A stretch of DNA of 64,000 nucleotides from Heptranchias perlo (taxonomy: Eukaryota): assembly GCF_035084215.1 (NCBI RefSeq), contig NC_090335.1, forward strand, positions 47,554,001-47,618,000, given 5' to 3'. Within the stretch, counting starts at the first letter, position 1. The number at the start of each line of letters is the position of its first letter. Made by a program: the position numbers and the translations under genes. This document shows positions 16,152-63,300 of this stretch, one piece after another. The notes under the pieces are model-generated. The model worked only from the letters and a program-made list of their open reading frames with translations. It did not search any database and was not told the DNA's origin.

Positions 16152-16314
16152 GAGAAACAGAGTTAATGTTTCAGGTCGATGATCTATCATCAGATCATCG
16201 ACCTGAAACATTAACTTTGTTTCTCTCTCCACAGATGCTGTCTGATTTGTTGAGTGTTTCCAACATTTTCTGCTTTTATTTCAGATTTCCAGCATCTGCA
16301 GTATTTTGCTTTTG
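16152..16314 (+). mobile_element. Short probable PLE-derived element with 34-bp inverted repeat and degenerate hammerhead
   Basis: arms 16152-16185 and 16192-16225 (1 mismatch); minus strand reads CTGATGA-tagatcatcgacct-GAAA-catt. Confidence 0.6.
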
Positions 16315-22369: not shown

Positions 22370-22600
22370 CAAGAGAACTCCCCTGCTGTTCTTCAAATAG
22401 TCCCATTGGATCTTTTAAGTTCATCTGAGAGGCCAGGTGGAACCTTGGCTCATCTGACGAACAACACCTCCGAAAGTACAACACTCCCTCAGTACTGCAC
22501 TGAAGTGCCAGCCTAAATTATGTGCTTGTTGCTGGAGTGGGGCTTGAACCCACGACCTGCCGGCTCAGGCCAGAGTGCTACCACTGAGCCAATGCTATCA
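22370..22600 (-). mobile_element. Deu-type tRNA SINE
   Basis: reverse complement of the 3655 family with A box and B box (ggttcaagcc). Confidence 0.75.
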
Positions 22601-30990: not shown

Positions 30991-31549
30991 TTTTGCACCC
31001 TGTTGCATCTCTTGTGGTTCTCGCCCCTCGTCTGACTGATCATTTATTGTTATAGTACTGAAGGCACTTATGTTTTGCATCTGCAGCTATGTTTTTTTAA
31101 AGATTTTTTTTCCCTCTGATTACCTTTTTATCATGCTTCAGTGCTATTCTCGTTGAGCATCACGTACTTGTAACTTCTTTGTGTGACTGCTCTTCACATT
31201 GTTCTGAAACATTTATTTGTTACCTCTTTTTCAGCTCTGTTTAACAACCATGTGGAGAGTAGTTGTTAGGTCTGTTCAGAGAGTGGGAGTTGGACAGTAG
31301 TCACATGTTGATTTGCCCTCCAACAACAGTGTCAGTTGGAGCTCTAATTTGGAATAAAACAAAATAACCAGGAAGGTTATAAATGGCCTAAATTTGTAGA
31401 ATAATGATACAGGAGCTGAGTTACATTCCTGCTCCCACCCCTAACTTGGCAATTCTAGTCATGATGTGGAGATGCCGGTGATGGACTGGGGTTGACAATT
31501 GTAAACAATTTTACAACACCAAGTTATAGTCCAGCAATTTTATTTTAAA

Positions 31550-31588
31550 TTCACAAGCTTTCGGAGGCTTCCTCCTTCGTCAGGTGAA
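31550..31588 (-). ncRNA. Minimal type I hammerhead ribozyme
   Basis: exact reverse complement of 31638-31676. Confidence 0.82.
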
Positions 31589-31637
31589 CGATGTGAAAAT
31601 GAAATCCTCGAAAAATGAGGATTTCATTTTCACATCG

Positions 31638-31676
31638 TTCACCTGACGAAGGAGGAAGCCTCCGAAAGCTTGTGAA
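31638..31676 (+). ncRNA. Minimal type I hammerhead ribozyme
   Basis: ttcac-CTGACGA-a-ggagg aag cctcc-GAAA-gctt-gtgaa; 5-bp stems I and II. Confidence 0.82.
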
Positions 31677-32399
31677 TTTAAAATAAAATTGCTGGACTAT
31701 AACTTGGTGTTGTAAAATTGTTTACAATTGGCAATTCTAGTTTGACATTTCAAGAAGGGTATTGGTTAGAACAGCTCTGAAGTGTGTGTGCACAATAATG
31801 ACAATGTACAAGCCGGTCACAGCAGTTCAGATAGTGTCAGATGTAGTACTCTACAGCTTATTAAAGTATATAGGTGGCATAAACTTTGTTTTAAGACAGA
31901 CTGATGTATTGATATAAATATTTGGCCACTTCAAAATGTGACTTCAACTGGCTAGGTACTTCAAAATGTTTTAGCTCTCATCTGGTGTAGCAATTAAGGC
32001 ACCTGGTCAAAATCCTAAAACGTGAAACACAGTGCCAAGTTAACTTTTTTTTCCCCCACTGAACCCTGAGTTTGTGATACTACCCTGAATTCCTTCAATG
32101 TTACGTGATACCCTAAGTAGAACCCTTCCCTATGATGCTACCTGATGATTATGTTCATTTGTAACAATTGTCTGTTGAAGTGCAAAGTGCCTGACTCGAG
32201 TGAAATGTGCATTTAGGTTAAAAAAAATTTAAATTCCACGCCTTTTTTAAAACTGCATAATTTCAAAAGATATTTAATGGTAGATGTATGCAAAAGTCAT
32301 TAATTGTTTGAAACCTTGTGATGTTGCCAGATTATATAAAAGATCGATTATAAAGGGATACAATACAATCTGTTATCTTCCAGTGTGATATTTTGACTC

Positions 32400-46975: not shown

Positions 46976-48743
46976 TGCATTAAATAAATTTAATGCATGT
47001 ATCTATGTGAGGAGATCCCCACCATCTTTGGCAACCACCCCATAACCTTCCTGCCTAATCATTTTGACTCCGAACTCTAACTGCTTGAAATGGGGTAATG
47101 ATCTTCTCATTTATTAATGTGAGGCAGAGATAAGATGTGCATTTATACTGCAGGTACTGATTCCAGCCAGGCAGTACCCTATTTATATTGTCTGACTCCA
47201 AATGGAATTCTCTGCCCAGGAGAGGAATCTACACATGCAGAGTTCCCCCTCCAACTGTTTAAATTTTAGATGTTTTCAGAGCAGGAGCATCTGCCTTAAT
47301 ACATTTACATCAACTCTGAATAAGTTCAAAACAAACCCCTTGAGCACTTTTTAAATTCAAATTGCCACTGCACTTCATTTAGACCGCATGTGGTGTCAGA
47401 TCCTAGTGTTGTAAAATGCTCTCTTCATTGGGCTCGCGCATAGACTCCATAGTTTCATTTTAGTGAAGTTGGAAAACTGAGACAAAGACACCCCTATCTG
47501 GATGAACATTTGGCTCTTCATCTCATCTACCCTCTCCCTGAACAGGCTGTTGAGATACAAGGAGCTTGATGGTCTAGTTATCATGCAATGGATCGAAAAA
47601 ATCCATTACTCCATATTTTATGCACTTCTGTTCATTGAATCGGAACACTATTCATCAGGTCCAGTTGCAGTAGGTCACCCCAACACTAAACTCTTTTTGA
47701 CTGGCCCAATATTCAAAAATAATAACTTGCATTTATATGGTTCCTTTAACATAAAAAAAATGTCCCCAGGTGCTTAGATTACCTTTTAACTAAAGTTAGG
47801 ACAAACAAAACCAAAGCATTATTTTGCACCTAGTTACATCTCATAGGACATCAGATTGGAGTTAGTGTTATTCCCTTTTGCAGACTGGACTGCCTGGCTG
47901 CTGTTATCATGTCTGAAATGTTAATGCATGCAATTTAGTCATTTCTATTGTGTTTTGAGTATAAAGACCACTCTGGAAAATTGTGCAAAGAAAACCAGCA
48001 GTTATTAGCCATTGCCACTTTGTTCGCAAAAGATGCAAGGACTGTTATATCTTGTTTGATTGTCCAATTCAGAAGAAATGGCTTTATGTGGAAAGTTCTA
48101 GAAGGTAAATGTTGTAGATTTAGTGAAAACATATTTGCTATGTGAGTGTGTGACTTGTATCCTACATGTAAAATCCTTCTCTGAACATGGACAAGTGAAA
48201 GCTCTTGAAACTGCTGTATGACCTATTTTCTATCAAGAGATTATAAGAAGTAACTTTCTGAAAATGGGTATCTTAACCCTGTATGGAATGGTTCATAGTC
48301 TCACGTTAAGTATTATACCAAATAGTATCTTGCTGATCTCGCTGCTTCTGTGTATTATTTATTGATCAACAAACCTGGAAAAGTCGTTTTAGCCTATACT
48401 GAGTGATACAACATTGTGTGTTGGCGTTGCCCTCTTTCCCCACCGCCCCCCCCCCCCCCCAACCAAATCTTCAGAGGTGACAGGAGAGCATGGTAGGCAT
48501 TGAGTATTCTGCAATGAGCGATTTACCACAAATCAAGAGCTTTTGGTTTGTAACACTTTTTTTATGGAAATTGTTGTCTAGTCACGAACACAAAAAAGGC
48601 ATTGGGGAAGAGAGAACTCTTAACTGTCTTAGTTTTAGTCATACTGTTTGTTTAGCTGGTGGCTGACTTGTTAATAACCCATTTATTTCAGATACAAGGA
48701 ATCTTACAACACCAGGTTATAGTCCAACTGTTTTATTTGAAAA

Positions 48744-48780
48744 TCACAAGCTTTCGGAGACTTTCTCCTTCGTCAGGTGA
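48744..48780 (-). ncRNA. Minimal type I hammerhead ribozyme
   Basis: minus strand tcac-CTGACGA-a-ggaga aag tctcc-GAAA-gctt-gtga. Confidence 0.8.
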
Positions 48781-48935
48781 GTGTGGGATTCGGATTCCAT
48801 GGAAGGTTGCTGCATTTATAGTCAGAGAACAATACCTGGTGATTAGATAATCTTTCCAACTGCCCGTTGGTAATCACCAGGTATTGTTCTCTGACTATAA
48901 ATGCGGTAACCTTCCATGGAATCCGAATCCCACAC

Positions 48936-48972
48936 TCACCTGACGAAGGAGAAAGCCTCCGAAAGCTTGTGA
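48936..48972 (+). ncRNA. Minimal type I hammerhead ribozyme
   Basis: tcac-CTGACGA-a-ggag aaagc ctcc-GAAA-gctt-gtga. Confidence 0.8.
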
Positions 48973-51900
48973 TTTTCAAATACAACACCAGGTTATAGTC
49001 CAACTGTTTTAAGATTCCTTACATTTGTTAACCCCAGTCCATCACCGGCATCTCCACGTCACATTTATTTCAGGCAACAGAATGGCCTTATCTGCATTAG
49101 GGTTATTGCATGGAAAAGTTGGTATCTAGAAAGATGAGATCAAATGAGTCAAATATTTTTCTTCACTAAAACCTGTCTTGAAACATTCCCAGATATGTTT
49201 TGTGCAGTGTTATAGAATCGTCGAATGTTATAGCACAGAAATAGACTAGACTATTCAGCCCACCAAGTCTGTGCAGGTGTTTTTTTTCTGCCCCCCCCCC
49301 CCCCCCCCCCAGCAAAACCACTTAATCTAATCCAATTTTCCTGCTTACACTCCATATGTTTTTTTGATAGTTCTCCCTTTTTCAAGCAGCTATTTTAATA
49401 TTTTTCTGTTTGCTTCCTTCCTCCTTGCTGTTAGCAAAGCAATCTAGAGATATTTGTTTATATTAATGGATTGCTGTGGTGATGAGATTTTTACACTGTT
49501 CAGGCTCTGCAGGTTTTCTTGGTTTGTGAAACAAGCAAGAAGGACAATGGTGGGAGACTTTGTATGGCTGGTTCACACTTGACTGGAAGCAAATGGCAAC
49601 ATAGTCCAGTACTTCATGTAGCGTACTTGATGGATAAGAAGACTACGCTGAAAATCCACAGTATAAATGTATGCTTAATACAACGTAGATTATGTATCAT
49701 TACAGTATTCCATAAAGCACATAAAAATGTGACTTTATAATTTGCATAATGGTGATCTTCATGCACTCAGCTGCTGCTTACAGTTGCCATGACTGTCATG
49801 GGGTCCTGCTAATGTTCTGCCACCACGGACCTTGCCAGTACTGCAGTTCTACTGATACATGTATTTGGATTTATTTTGTGATTCATGTACAAAGTGTAAG
49901 GGTAACAGTGTGAAGTCCAATAGATGAAATACAATCTTGGTTAGTTCTGGTGATCTTAGACCACTTATGCTTTGCAGAATAGAGCTTGTGCTCGGTCGGC
50001 TTCTGGTTGATAAGCAGCATGGATTTCAAAATACTAGTTTTCATCTATAGAACACCAATAAAACTTAAATTTTACAGAAGGCATAGCAGTTTATTCAATA
50101 ACATAGCTGGCACCTTTTTCACATACTTAATATCCCTTTGTGGCTCCAGCTTTTTAAAAAAAAATCAGAAATGGTGAGTAGTTGAATTGTTTTGTGAGAT
50201 GGACTCCGTGCCATGGGTATAATGCAAACTTGCCATATCCAACCCCTCAAAGTCTGTGTGACTTCTCATGTAGTCCACTCCCACAGCTGCTCTGTTTCTA
50301 TTTGCCCTGACATTTTTTATGTTGGTAGCGATACTGGATTTGCCTATTTGAATATCTGAGGCATGGGTCTGCTCGCTTTTAGATGGATTCAAGATATAGC
50401 CACCAAATGTGGGAGAAATCCTGAGAACAACCTGCCAGGCCCACCAAATGCGAATGTTAGCAGCATAAAAATATCTCTACAACCAGAAATGTGGTGGTGT
50501 CTGCAGAACTGGCTCCATCCAACCTCTGACCTGTCCTGAGCAAGACAAAGCTTAATCTCTAAGATCAGTTGAGAAAATAGGGAGTTCATTTACCTCAATA
50601 TTAATAGGGAAGCAATTGCTTTTCCTGTTTGTTTCTCCCTCCCCAGTATTGGAGCTTATCACTCAATCTTAGTGGCAGCTATCCTCCTTGAAAAATTATT
50701 GCCATCACTTTCTAGCTGTGTTTGTAAATGCACAACAATGACTGTTGCATCGAAGGTATTGTGCCACTTGAATGTAAGGTTGCCATGATGCACCAATTAT
50801 CAATGTTGGTCTCTTCTTGGTGCCTTTCTCCCCCGACATCAGCAGTCCCCCTTAAATACAAATTCTAGTATTACACAAGAAATTAAAAACAGGAATTTGC
50901 TGTAGATTGATATAATTGTACAACTTGATAAATGTCAGTGCAAAAAATGGAAGTGCGCAAAGGATCTAAACCACTTCAATAAACCTAGGGGGTTGGGCAT
51001 TTTATGTAGTTGCCCATCCCCCTACCTGATGCCACCTTAGCTATAAGACCTGTATCTCTTTGTTCATTTCTCTTTGTGCCAAATAGCTATACAGTTCCAC
51101 CTGAGTAATCTAATCTTGCACAGCCCTGGTAACCTGGGAAACTAATTCTTAATTTACAATAAAGTTTGGCATGGAGGACTGTCCACAGTTCATAAATTGT
51201 CTTTATTCACAACTGCTCTTTGTTCTTGGTTGTTTTCTTGGGAGGCAAGACAGCTCCCTTCTCCTTTCACCTGTGCTGTTCAAGCAGCAGGCATTTTCTA
51301 CAGTTTTGCTGCCTCCACCCTTTTTGTTCCTTGTTATTGGCACAATGATCTTTTTTAAATAAAATAGAAGCAAAATTGAAGTTGGAGTGATAATAGATCG
51401 TTTGAAGATCTTACTTTAGTCATTTTTTAGTTTTCAATTCAGAAATTTGTGTTTAAGAAGATGAAGATTACAGAATGGCAAGGAAGTGAGGGTGTTTTAT
51501 TTTCAAAAGCACAAACTTTATATGAACTGGCCATATAATGCTTTTAACTGAAGGCTTCACATTGGGTGCTCTGGAAAAACCAATTGTGGGGTGTGCTTAA
51601 ATTTTGGGTGTACACTGGGTAACACTATTGCTGTTAAGTAATTAGATTCCTCCCATTACAGTGTTGACTCATTAATTCTTTCAGGTGTGTATAATATGGT
51701 ATGTGGATTTTTTAATGAGTACAGAGTCTGGAAATTCTCTCAGCAAGTGATGACATTTTATGGACGGCCATGGCCTTTTCTTCCAAAAGTTAATTACATT
51801 AGACCTTTATGTGTGACTAATAATGGTCTGTGATTTGTCCAGAGTCCAAAAATACTTGCTTGTTTATCACATTTCTACAAATGAACACAGTATTAAGTTT

Positions 51901-52881: not shown

Positions 52882-53247
52882 GACTGAGTTCAGGACGTAT
52901 TGTAAAAGTCCCATCAGGTCCTCTGTACCGTGTGGTAGGAACACCAGTCAGCATTCCCTGTAATGTCAGTGATTATCAAGGGCCGTCTGAACAAAACTTT
53001 GATTGGTCTGTGTCTCATGCGGGTCAAAGGCGAAAGATTGTCAGCACATTGGAACCTGAATTTTCAGATGCTGAATACAAAGAGAAAATCCAGAAAAAGG
53101 AGATTTCAGTGGTGAGACTCAGTGACAGTTCTGTGGAGCTGCACTTCAAGAGTGCTCAACTTGATGATGATGGGGACTATCAATGCCAGACACCTAGCAC
53201 TGATGAAAATAGTTCTGGAAATTATGATGCCAATGTGATTTTGAAGG
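52882..53247 (+). CDS. PTGFRN: PTGFRN exon 2, Ig-V domain 1
   Basis: polypyrimidine tract + cag acceptor, gtaagt donor, phase 1/1; RVVGT..IPCNVSDYQGPSEQNFDWS..C.TPSTD..GNY matches the PTGFRN N-terminus (paralogs IGSF8/IGSF3 fit less well). Confidence 0.92.
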
Positions 53248-59095: not shown

Positions 59096-59268
59096 ACATA
59101 GAGATAAAAGTTAGCTGAAACATGTCACAGCTGACAGGTCAAGGGTGTGAAACAAGATGTTACCGAGACACCAAGTAAAAATCCTGATTCTTTTATAACT
59201 ATCCCTTTTTTAAGCTTCGGAGTGTTCTGGTTTTGTTAATAATCCTGATGCACTCTTTCATTAAACAG

Positions 59269-59700
59269 TGATCCCAGATGGACTGACTGTGTTATCTGGA
59301 AAATCCAGAAGTGTGAAGTCTGCAAATTACACTGAAGGGAAACCACTGGAACTTCAATGTGTCGCCACCACCACGTCATCTGTTTTCACCCATCTCTCTG
59401 TCACATGGCAGTTAAAGTCAGAAGAAAATGGTAGTGTGATTCAGGAGAACATTCTGTCATTCACTGAAGATAACAGATTTCAGCCTGGTGATTCATACAA
59501 AAATAGGTATCAGAGTGGTGATATTAGAATGGTCATGGAAACAAATGGTGTCTTCAAATTGATTATTGCCCACTTGCGACCTGAGGACCATGGTGTTTAC
59601 TCCTGTGTAGTAGCAGAATGGGTCAGAGAAGATGGCTCCAATTGGAAAAAAATCCAGGAAAAAAGTACAGACATTGCATCGATCAAAATACAGCAGTTAG
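59269..59700 (+). CDS. PTGFRN: PTGFRN exon 3, Ig-V domain 2 (EWI-motif domain)
   Basis: cag acceptor, gtatgt donor, phase 1/1; EG.PLELQC..THL..W..RYQSGDIR..D.G.Y.CVVAEWV..NWKKIQEK. Confidence 0.92.
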
Positions 59701-59959
59701 GTATGTTCTATTTGCAGTAAATTATCCTGTAATTCAGGAATAGGTTAAATCTTCATGCAAATATTGCTGAATAACCATTCCTCACTTTCCTGGGTATACC
59801 AGTGGTTTGGATAGAGTTGCTAGTATAGGGGTTAAAAACGGTGCAAATTTAACAATTAATTTCAGCAAGCTGTTCAACATTTGGGGAATGCAATTTGAAA
59901 ATTTGTGCTCCTTTTTTTTATTTTGGTTTTCTTCTTTCTCACTTTTTGTTCACCCTCTG

Positions 59960-60339: not shown

Positions 60340-63300
60340 GGGAATTCCTTGTACACCTTCCTCTTTCATTCTCCCAGGTTTAGTTTTATCTTGGGTGTGG
60401 TTATTACTAGACCATCCTCAAAAATGTACACACTGCGCCTCCACAAAGCTTGTGTCTTGACCAACACTTGAACGTTTAACACAAACTCCCAACTTTCTGG
60501 GATCTGATAGTTGTCAATTTAGTTACATTCAACATACAGTTCATAAGCTTTCAGTCCCCGTGATAGTCTTTGTAGTGGCTGGGTCCAGCTGTGTGCTGTT
60601 GCCTTTCCGAACTCCGTCTCCACTGACTACTGTTGCATGCTTTTGTTGTTGACTGTGGATTCGCCCACAGACTGGATATTAGTCCGAACAATAGATACCG
60701 TCCAATTTCCATTTCCAGTTTTTTTTTTTAGTTCTGTAAATCAAGCATAGTTTCTGTTACTATCTCAGTTTAAAACATAATTTTTAACCTGCTGTTTTAA
60801 ATTGGTTAATATGATACCATTTGCTACTTTTTGACATTCTTCTCAGTATTTTGAATCAAGTATATTGATGGGCTAGCTTTATCAATTATGGGGAATGGTC
60901 CCTTCCATCTAGGTGCTAAGGGGTGTTCCTTTTTTCCATAATCTATTACCATTACTGGGTTGCCGACCTGATACTCAAAAGGTTCTACCTTTTTTGTCAA
61001 AGTATCTTCATCTGTTTTTTTTGATTTGCCCAATTGTTTAGCCATGTAAATGTTTGTGGTCCTGATTGATTATTTTTTTTTTTTGGTACCCAATTTTCAT
61101 TGACTGCTCCCTGCAACATTGGTGTAACTGTTGGGGTTAACAAGTGACCAGGTGCCCTCATCAACCTTCCGGTCACAGCCTGGTATGGCGATATGCCGGT
61201 TATAGAATGTGGGGTAGCTCTGATAGCCATTAAACACATAGGAAGCATATTTGGCCATTGTGCAGGGTGATCGGCACAAAATTTCCTGAGCATCAATTTT
61301 TGGGTCTGATTTACTCCTTTCCGCTACCTCCGAGGATTGTGAGTGACGGGAAATGTGTAACTTCTGTTTGATTCCTGTTGTTGTTTGTAACTCGGTGAAG
61401 ATTTTCCCTGTGAAATGTGACCCCTGATCACTCTCCACCTGTATTGATACTACCCACCTGTGGACCACCTCGTGCAGTAACATGCAAGCTACGGTTAAAG
61501 CTGTGTTGGTGCATACCGGGAAAGCCTCTATCCATTTAGTAAATTTATCCAAAATGACTAGACAGTAAACAAAACAACCCAGCACTTGTAGTTGACCAAT
61601 AAAATCAATTTGAACGTGGGTCCAAGGACCGTCTGGCGGAGGTGCTGACCTTAAAGGCTCTATTGACTCCAGCACCTGGGTTGTGCTGCAGACAAACTAA
61701 ACACTGACTAACTCTATGAACAATGAATGATTTAAGGGAGGGCCACCAGGCCGATTCTTTAATTTCAGAGATGGTAGTTTCCGATGACGCATGACCGCCC
61801 ATAGGTAATGAGTGAATGAAAGGTTTGGAAGAAGTCCTCTGCATAACTGGGTGGTGCGCACACAACTGGAAATTGGCACCCGTGCCCTTCTTTCATGAGG
61901 ACCGAATGTGACTTGTGGATCAAGAGTCGTACAGTGGGCATACGGCATGGGTTGTGGCACTTTGGTGGTGCCACTCGCGAATCTGGCAGTAGAGTTCACT
62001 ACTCATTCTGTAAGGTGTGCAAGCCACCAGGAGAGGTTGGAGAGTTCACCACTGATACCTGCTGCATGAGAGTAGCTTCCTACGGTGCCCCGTGCTGTGC
62101 TGCCGCCTTAGCATGTTGATCAGCCAGCGAGTTTCCGTGGGGAAACCATTCTGCTATGAGCCCTGACTTTCCCAAGGTAGATTGGCACCTTCCTGTCTTG
62201 TAGCGCCACCCAAAATTGGGAGAGCATTGCTGCGTGTTCCCGATCTGCAGTACAGAAGTTATTCTGGTGATTCAGTAGTAACAATTGTACTGTTGACGAC
62301 ATAGACACACTCCGAGTAGATGTTGATAGCCACATTAGATATGATGTGAACGGCCGTCAGAAAAGCTGCCATTTCAGCCTACTGTGCACAGTGCATGTTG
62401 CATTTATACTAGTACACCTGCTTGGGTAACCACTGCCAATCCAGTATGTGGTTTCCCATTTACGTGGTAGGCTGAGTTGTCAATGTAGACACTTTGCGCA
62501 TTGCCTATTGGGGTCTTCAGGACTGGGTGGTGATCAAACTGTAAAATGGGCAAGGGACACGTATGTGTCTCCCCTTGGTACAATAAAAGATACGGAATGA
62601 GCATTGTCTTTTTAGGGGTGACCTGGAGGTTACGTTCCATCAGCAGCAATGTCCGGTGGTTCAGTCGTTGTGACGCGACCAACGTGTTGCCAGGCTTTAG
62701 CAGCAAGTGCAGAGGTGTGTGGGGAGAATGCAACACCAAAGTCTGTAGCCCAGTGATATAAGTAAAATGCTTGACTGCCCAGAAGGTTGCCAAAAGGTGT
62801 CGCTCACATGGGTCGAACATCTTCTCCACTCTAGTCAGGATGCGGGATGCATAAGCAATTGGATGTGGCCGCCACTTCCAGGTAAAATGGCTGATTTGGG
62901 CCTGGAGCGATTAAGCACGTAGCATGCCCAACTGCTTGCTTCAGCTCGGTTGCTGCATCGGTATGTTTGTTCTTCCAATCCTGCTGAACTGAATCATCAT
63001 TTCCCTTGAGTAAGTCATACAGCGGCTTAGCAAGTTCTGCAAATTGTGGAATGAACGATTGTTGGTACCCCACCAGCCCCAAAAATGACCAGAGAGTTGT
63101 CTTTGACACTGGCTATGGTAGCCTCTGTGTAATCTCCACTTTGTGGGTGTCAGGCAACTTTCCGTTGTGCTATAAACTGATCCCCAAAAAAATACTTCTA
63201 ATGTAGTAGCTGAGCTTTCTTGGGATTGATCTTTAGACCAGCTGTCCTTAATACTTCAGGATGTTCCGGGCAGACTATCAGATGTTGTTCTCGTGTCCTG

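What the first reader, a model, noticed from the sequence alone, without database searches (positions are those of the whole stretch)
48692..49061. Second double-hammerhead palindrome with 12-bp TSD
Seen: 112-bp arms with three transition mismatches, a 25-nt spacer, hammerheads at 48744-48780 (-) and 48936-48972 (+), and the PLE tail on the right. The inner sequence differs from the 31.5 kb element, so this is a distinct subfamily with a conserved ribozyme/tail module.
Basis: seen in the sequence. Interest (0 to 1): 0.7.

Follow-up and report, generated by a model that had tools for sequence, protein, structure and literature searches.

The report
Head-to-head Penelope stub with micro-inversion
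This 370-base mirror-image repeat is one short insertion of a very abundant Penelope-like jumping gene, a known layout that was likely built on landing when both cut DNA strands copied the end of the element's RNA; its one unusual trait is a flipped 31-base block that recurs, with the same ends, in three other copies.

Summary
In detail: 12-bp TSD, 112-bp arms with three transitions, 25-nt loop, a minimal hammerhead motif on each strand, tail on the right. It is no separate ribozyme element. It is a 5'-truncated, head-to-head insertion of a Neptune-like Penelope retroelement (RT, CX4CxxC linker, GIY-YIG-like end); 2,117 arms in the genome carry its inner sequence. The 'spacer' is the left arm running on into parental 3' UTR. 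The 31.5-kb element belongs to a sister subfamily (ORF 93-94% identical). Of 65 head-to-head insertions, 61 pair one tailed arm with one ending 24-45 nt short, none has two tails; arms share alleles (5% discordant, 34% shuffled); either arm can be longer. This fits priming from both target strands on one source RNA. Inverted pLTR, tail, TSD and opposite-strand hammerheads are published, and this scan noted such palindromes before (153 notes, at least 29 genomes, this one included). One transcript carries only one sense hammerhead, buried in a long hairpin. Ordinary, with one mechanistic footnote.

The parts
48680..48691 (+). Left target-site duplication, 12 bp
   Evidence: D5; family mode is 12 bp, 29 of 63 TSDs found
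48692..48695 (.). Four junction bases; 2 of 4 match the parental continuation (untemplated, or two substitutions)
48696..48869 (-). Inverted, tail-less arm: parental 3' UTR/pLTR from about 215 to 40 nt upstream of the ORF start codon; 3 substitutions and a 2-nt deletion against the family majority; includes 24 nt of the apparent spacer
48744..48780 (-). Minimal type I hammerhead motif, left arm (one change in the stem II loop)
   Evidence: pattern as in PMC4209133
48870..49061 (+). Forward, tail-bearing arm: from about 190 nt upstream to the A of the ORF start codon
48936..48972 (+). Minimal type I hammerhead motif, right arm: 4-bp stem I, CUGA-N-GA core, extra A, 4-bp stem II, GAAA, 2-nt palindromic loop III; predicted cut between 48968 and 48969
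   Evidence: cut site inferred from hammerhead numbering
48981..49011 (-). 31-nt block (TA...TA, 27 nt between) inverted in place, about 80 to 50 nt upstream of the start codon; parental block has a 6-of-7 imperfect terminal inverted repeat
49022..49061 (+). Tail: the roughly 35-40 nt present in one arm only, between the two family end points
49062..49073 (+). Right target-site duplication, 12 bp
   Evidence: bridged by contigs

Best explanation
It is a short, head-to-head insertion of a Neptune-like Penelope retroelement, likely made in one event in which the element's endonuclease cut the two target strands about 12 bp apart and each cut end primed a reverse transcript of the same source RNA. 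One cDNA likely started at the tail end (at the ORF start codon) and ran about 190 nt; the other likely started about 35-40 nt further in and ran to about 215 nt upstream; both are antisense and point at each other, their 3' ends were joined blunt, and repair filled in the TSD. Each arm therefore carries a copy of the pLTR hammerhead, on opposite strands. A 31-nt block of the right arm was inverted by a short template switch, at insertion or later. The copy encodes no protein and is most likely inert; if transcribed it would form a 112-bp double-stranded RNA that buries the sense hammerhead. Shown: parentage, anatomy, family statistics, recurrence of the inversion. Inferred: dual priming, one RNA, timing and cause of the inversion, inertness.
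For: Parent ORF upstream of the same UTR: RVT_1 E 5.2e-9, DKG, CX4CxxC, GIY-YIG-like motif. 65 head-to-head pairs among the 174 loci then held: 61 tail + short end, 3 tail + other, 1 short end + other, 0 tail + tail; TSD found in 63 of 65, mode 12. Tail-less arm is longer by more than 35 nt in 10 of 39 pairs (7 by more than 500), tailed arm in 13: fold-back of the tailed cDNA cannot give the first class. Same source: 16 of 310 polymorphic sites discordant between arms versus 33.6% in shuffles (minimum 22.6% in 500); 32 shared rare variants, 1.5 per kb versus 0.13, 11 private to the pair; 9 of 9 tiny palindromes concordant at an A/T site. Inner ends within 35 nt in 16 of 39 pairs versus 2.8 permuted (maximum 10 in 10,000), as if both cDNAs often ran off one RNA end. 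In vitro a Poseidon protein cuts and extends both strands and starts RT at two sites that bound the tail (PMC11167929).
Against: In vitro the two start sites are used alike on both strands, which does not explain the strict one-and-one pairing seen here. Conversion between arms after insertion could also make arms concordant. The window copy is the only one of 39 pairs discordant at the polymorphic site 48809 (6 C/C, 32 T/T, 1 C/T), which a two-template origin would also give. No excess of shared A-to-G changes (3 of 32), so single-molecule copying is not shown. The pairs were gathered by my searches, not at random, and short pairs are favoured. No intermediate was observed.
Confidence: 0.72

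Rival explanations
1. Fold-back (self-priming): one cDNA folds on itself and copies itself back, as proposed for Adineta PLEs on an antisense template; possibly a hybrid in which both ends prime and one cDNA then folds back and anneals to the other.
For: Explains identical alleles in both arms and the 16 of 39 near-symmetric centres. In the window copy the 3' part of the loop can form a 5-bp mini-stem. Proposed in PMC3846280 Discussion.
Against: Arms differ in length by hundreds to thousands of bases in both directions (23 of 39 pairs); pure fold-back from one fixed strand predicts one direction. Fold-back from the tail-less cDNA needs a second source for the tail.
Confidence: 0.17
2. Two RNA molecules (same or different source loci), one per subunit of a dimeric protein, each copied once.
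For: Protein predicted to be a dimer (PMC11167929). The window copy is discordant at one family-polymorphic site. Two transcripts of one locus, or two units of a tandem transcript, would still share alleles.
Against: Different source loci are disfavoured by 5% versus 34% discordance; two independent molecules do not predict coinciding inner ends (16 of 39 versus 2.8).
Confidence: 0.25
3. A non-autonomous double-hammerhead mini-element (MITE- or retrozyme-like) that spreads as a unit and uses both ribozymes.
For: Compact, TSD-flanked, both motifs intact.
Against: Junction not seen elsewhere among 40 scored candidates; sister palindromes have their own junctions and range from under 0.1 to over 5 kb; motifs are on opposite strands and paired in the MFE fold; retrozymes are defined by tandem same-strand units.
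Confidence: 0.03
4. Assembly or sequencing artefact (fold-back chimera).
For: No long reads could be examined.
Against: Perfect TSD, arms that differ by private changes, unequal ends that follow the family rule, and contigs of raw runs that bridge both outer junctions.
Confidence: 0.02

Closest known systems
Endonuclease-bearing Penelope-like elements with an inverted 5'-truncated copy, a 30-40-bp tail at one end and a TSD (PMC3846280: passages and Discussion read; PMC8557442: passages read)
   Same: Head-to-head inverted pLTR, tail on one arm, variable TSD, C-terminal GIY-YIG ORF; CX2-5CxxC linker as in Neptune and Nematis.
   Different: Here the insertion is so short that no ORF is left; the papers leave the cause of the inversion open or propose self-priming on an antisense template.
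Minimal hammerheads of metazoan PLEs (PMC4209133: parts 1-2 of 4 read)
   Same: Short helix I, extra base before helix II, no true helix III, palindromic 2-nt loop; the paper reports pairs of such motifs 100-700 bp apart on opposite strands.
   Different: Helix II is 4-5 bp here; activity untested.
Poseidon PLE of Anolis in vitro (PMC11167929: parts 1-2 of 4 read; supplements not opened)
   Same: Two RT start sites bounding the tail; both target strands cut and extended; hammerhead upstream of the start sites.
   Different: There the sites lie 111-118 nt inside the ORF and are used alike on both strands; here the ends fall at the start codon and about 35 nt upstream, one per arm.
Short template-switch inversions (four-point model; PMC5453318: passages read)
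   Same: In-place inversion of a short block with 2-3 nt of identity at switch points.
   Different: Here the same block with the same ends is inverted in four independent repeat copies.
L1 twin priming (recalled; no call)
   Same: Second target strand primes a second cDNA, giving a 5' inversion.
   Different: In L1 the two cDNAs copy mostly non-overlapping parts; here both copy the same 3' end, giving a palindrome.
Non-LTR retrozymes (bioRxiv 10.64898/2026.07.22.740005: part 1 of 5 read)
   Same: PLE-derived, hammerhead-bearing, non-coding.
   Different: Retrozymes are tandem same-strand units; this is an inverted pair.

Membership tests
EN+ Penelope-like element | Parent ORF with PLE-type RT (DKG motif, RT core) | tested here: met
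   647-aa partial ORF of L062 ending upstream of the same UTR: PF00078 E 5.2e-9, 36.5 bits over cut-off 29.6; PADKGG and YIDD present
EN+ Penelope-like element | [quoted passage not shown] | tested here: inconclusive
   Motif seen by eye at the C-terminus (VYLIRC-x3-C-x4-YIG, later histidines), but Pfam gave no GIY-YIG hit at E 0.01 or 0.1
EN+ Penelope-like element | pLTR with minimal hammerhead | tested here: met
   77 of 99 tail-bearing arms match a strict minimal-hammerhead pattern; both window arms match
EN+ Penelope-like element | 30-40-bp tail at one end; inverted 5'-truncated copy; variable TSD | tested here: met
   61 of 65 pairs; TSD 9-18 bp, mode 12
Neptune/Nematis clades | CX2-5CxxC linker between RT and EN | tested here: met
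   C-x4-C-x2-C in the L062 ORF; definition in PMC8557442
Neptune clade proper | RT phylogeny with reference PLEs | not tested
   No reference PLE set was available in the tools used
Hammerhead ribozyme (active) | Self-cleavage, probably as dimer or protein-assisted | not testable with these tools
   No Rfam match; monomer fold not above shuffles; co-folding two copies did not give the helix III dimer
Non-LTR retrozyme | Two or more consecutive same-strand hammerhead units in tandem | tested here: not met
   Motifs on opposite strands; definition
MITE-like non-autonomous family | Same composite unit present at many loci | tested here: not met
   Exact junction only at this locus among 40 of 370 candidates scored; junctions differ across the pairs listed

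The most novel reading that the evidence does not exclude
The 31-nt inversion is a footprint of the PLE reverse transcriptase itself: while finishing a double-primed insertion it hops back onto the element's RNA at a fixed site about 50 nt upstream of the start codon (5' foot of the small hairpin that borders the second start site), copies to about 80 nt upstream and returns by a 6-of-7 match. Together with the strict one-tailed/one-tail-less rule and shared alleles, the genome would record a coupled, asymmetric two-site, one-RNA insertion reaction that the published in vitro work does not show.
Probability: 0.2. Interest if true: 0.55.

Novelty: new member of a known kind. Interest (0 to 1): 0.2.

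Why it matters
The locus itself matters little: it is one of thousands. As a set, these insertions bear on an open question named in PMC8557442, how PLEs form tandem/inverted structures: the counts here favour priming from both target strands at two fixed RNA sites on one source, without an antisense template. My searches found no paper stating this for PLEs (held library only), but the scan's own notes have said it many times, so this locus adds only a replicate and the recurrent micro-inversion. If the copy lies in an intron, it would put a 112-bp hairpin into a pre-mRNA, a possible editing or small-RNA substrate (inferred, untested).

Tried and rejected
Rfam: no family at gathering in the window; only generic miRNA-hairpin matches far below gathering near the element, rejected as palindrome effects. 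Expression: no RNA holder listed; guessed-RNA run X5 holds only family-shared words. Centre of the palindrome (48845-48866) had no exact contig cover in 4 of 4 runs laid; the tool states that a hole proves nothing. No empty-site joint among the rows shown (48 rows not shown); all four DNA runs are one sample. Controls for the inversion: product with inner breakpoints, no new locus; loop inversion of the perfect 6-bp hairpin nearby, 0; same block in the sister subfamily, 0 against 3,717 arms (about 0.9 expected at the same rate, so uninformative). A looser inversion pattern was swamped by normal copies (14,584 matches); its two extra exact hits were tiny head-to-head insertions, not inversions. 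A first k-mer scan for other inversions missed the positive control and was discarded; the repaired scan found 3 of the 4 known cases, one palindromic false hit and nothing else, with low power. Association of the inversion with head-to-head insertions (4 of 4) is not significant: at least 46% of arms are in such pairs and one of the four was chosen for being a palindrome. First exon of the neighbouring gene not found in the window by a CpG and signal-peptide scan. A paper search for shark PLEs gave nothing relevant in the 15 listed. One regular-expression script had a wrong spacing and was rerun. Supplements of the papers were not opened; those of PMC11167929 (genomic ends, Fig. S2) may bear on the end-point claims.

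Full report
Observation. A 12-bp direct repeat flanks 48692-49061. The inverted arms are 48729-48845 and 48871-48987 with four mismatches; the inner 112 bp hold three transitions. The hammerhead-like motifs sit at 48744-48780 (-) and 48936-48972 (+). The element folds at -241 kcal/mol, beyond all 100 shuffles. Contigs of four short-read runs of one sample pass from unique flank through both outer junctions. Long reads were not available.

Parentage. The genome holds 3.25 billion bases in 1,879 contigs; it is a vertebrate by its genes, and the repeat resembles ones I recall from cartilaginous fishes (recalled, not tested). The right end matches many loci at 90-95%, the shortfall being the inverted block. 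Upstream of the same sequence, longer copies carry an ORF with an RT domain (PF00078, E 5.2e-9), the DKG motif, a C-x4-C-x2-C linker and a GIY-YIG-like end. By the definitions in PMC8557442 (passages) this is an endonuclease-bearing PLE of the Neptune or Nematis type; no tree was built, and Pfam did not call the nuclease. An inner 36-mer has 2,117 matches (1 mismatch allowed); the outer 46-mer has 16,778 (2 mismatches); reversed-pattern controls have 0. In a partial tandem copy the tail runs straight into the ORF's start codon (L026).

Anatomy corrected. Against a real long copy, the left arm is 48696-48869 (about 215 to 40 nt upstream of the start codon, inverted) and the right arm is 48870-49061 (about 190 nt upstream to the A of the start codon), joined blunt. 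So 24 of the 25 spacer bases are parental. The left arm has three substitutions and a 2-nt deletion; the right arm two substitutions and an inverted block.

Subfamily. The 31.5-kb element's inner 36-mer has 3,717 matches. In the 25 loci fetched, its ORF is 93-94% identical to the L062 ORF in the five longest matches, its non-coding part 77-85% and its outer module 88-91%.

How common the layout is. Of 52 distinct arms taken from pattern lists, 24 have a head-to-head partner within 1.5 kb and 2 a tail-to-tail neighbour. Among the 174 loci held at that point I found 65 head-to-head pairs; they were gathered by my searches, not at random. 61 pair an arm ending at the start codon with one ending 24-45 nt earlier; 3 pair a tailed arm with a more deeply cut one; 1 has neither arm tailed and no TSD; none has two tails. 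TSDs were found in 63, 9-18 bp, 29 of them 12 bp.

Mechanism. For the 39 pairs whose arms both reach the subfamily-specific part: 16 of 310 comparisons at 15 non-CpG polymorphic sites are discordant, against 33.6% in 500 shuffles (minimum 22.6%); arms differ by 2.4% against 3.9%; they share 32 rare variants, 1.5 per kb against 0.13. Inner ends lie within 35 nt in 16 pairs against 2.8 by permutation; the tailed arm is longer in 13 and the tail-less arm in 10, 7 of these by over 500 nt. Junctions: 19 with overlap of 2 nt or more, 8 blunt or 1 nt, 12 with inserts (from BLAST ends). Best reading: both target ends prime antisense cDNA on one source, at two fixed sites, and the cDNAs are joined. This matches PMC11167929 (parts 1-2 of 4 read), where a Poseidon protein cuts and extends both strands and starts at two sites bounding the tail, but there the sites are used alike on both strands, so the one-and-one rule is unexplained. 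PMC3846280 (Discussion) proposed self-priming on an antisense template; it fits the near-symmetric class but not large asymmetry in both directions. Against my reading: conversion between arms could add concordance; the window copy is the only discordant pair of 39 at site 48809; and shared A-to-G changes, which an earlier scan note used as evidence for one RNA molecule, are not enriched here (3 of 32).

The ribozymes. Each motif fits the minimal hammerhead of PMC4209133 (parts 1-2 of 4 read), which also reports opposite-strand pairs 100-700 bp apart and low activity that needs dimers. 77 of 99 tailed arms keep the pattern. Rfam does not call it. In this palindrome a transcript holds one sense motif, and the predicted fold pairs it into the long stem. 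In PMC11167929 cleavage needed protein and was dispensable for insertion. No function of the pair is supported.

The micro-inversion. 48981-49011 is the reverse complement of the parental block, bounded by TA on both sides. The pattern with up to 2 mismatches has 4 matches in the genome against 16,778 normal arms. The four have different flanks, junctions and UTR alleles, and only one arm of each is inverted, twice the tailed and twice the tail-less arm, so they arose separately. All four lie in head-to-head insertions, which is not significant given. The parental block has a 6-of-7 terminal inverted repeat. Products with inner breakpoints, the loop inversion of a perfect hairpin nearby, and the sister-subfamily equivalent were not found. 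The simplest cause is a short template switch of the kind in PMC5453318 (passages); that the same outer breakpoints recur, while the inner ones with longer homology do not, leaves room for an RT hop at insertion. That is speculation.

Context. Two plus-strand Ig V-type exons follow at about 52.9 kb and 59.3 kb; the first starts behind a splice acceptor and resembles the PTGFRN/EWI family (name recalled). The element may lie in the first intron; the first exon was not found.

Known and new. The layout is described as typical in PMC3846280 and PMC8557442. Searches for PLEs with twin priming or head-to-head mechanism listed no paper that states dual priming for PLEs (held library, listings only). 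The scan's notes hold 153 findings with these words in at least 29 genomes, several with the same reading, one in this genome; none was returned for the micro-inversion words or for this place. I had reached the dual-priming reading before seeing them. Verdict: real, a new member of a known kind, interest 0.2.

Noticed in passing
window 5534-7162: 5'-truncated copy of a sister PLE subfamily: 417-aa open frame (93.7% DNA identity to the reference over 1.1 kb) and a tailed pLTR with a third stem II loop variant at 7031-7159.
   Followed up: partly
window 31460-31734: Head-to-head stub of the sister subfamily with tail on the left; its small hairpin next to the tail-less end point carries a compensatory G-C to A-U change relative to this subfamily (one event), hinting that the hairpin marks the second RT start.
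   Followed up: partly
L012/L017 (G000:C3:97583924-97584818): Four head-to-tail units of about 250 bp, each with hammerhead, pLTR end and some non-PLE flank: a retrozyme-like tandem array derived from this subfamily.
   Followed up: no
G000, 9 loci listed (e.g. L202): Tiny perfect palindromes without hammerhead, joined at the same self-complementary T/A run about 80 nt upstream of the start codon, which is also one boundary of the inverted block.
   Followed up: partly
window 52884-53246 and 59265-59717 (+): Two Ig V-type exons of a probable PTGFRN/EWI-family gene (name recalled); V-set E 9.9e-9 for the second.
   Followed up: partly
window 16169-16193 (-) and 22454-22475 (+): Further hammerhead-core-like motifs unrelated to this subfamily, possibly decayed pLTRs of other PLE families.
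   Followed up: no
window 61097-62910 (-): Fragments resembling integrase and RNase H regions of an LTR retroelement (by eye).
   Followed up: no
L066/L173, L146, L141: Head-to-head insertions of 4-5.5 kb with near-full-length arms follow the same tail/tail-less rule as the stubs.
   Followed up: partly
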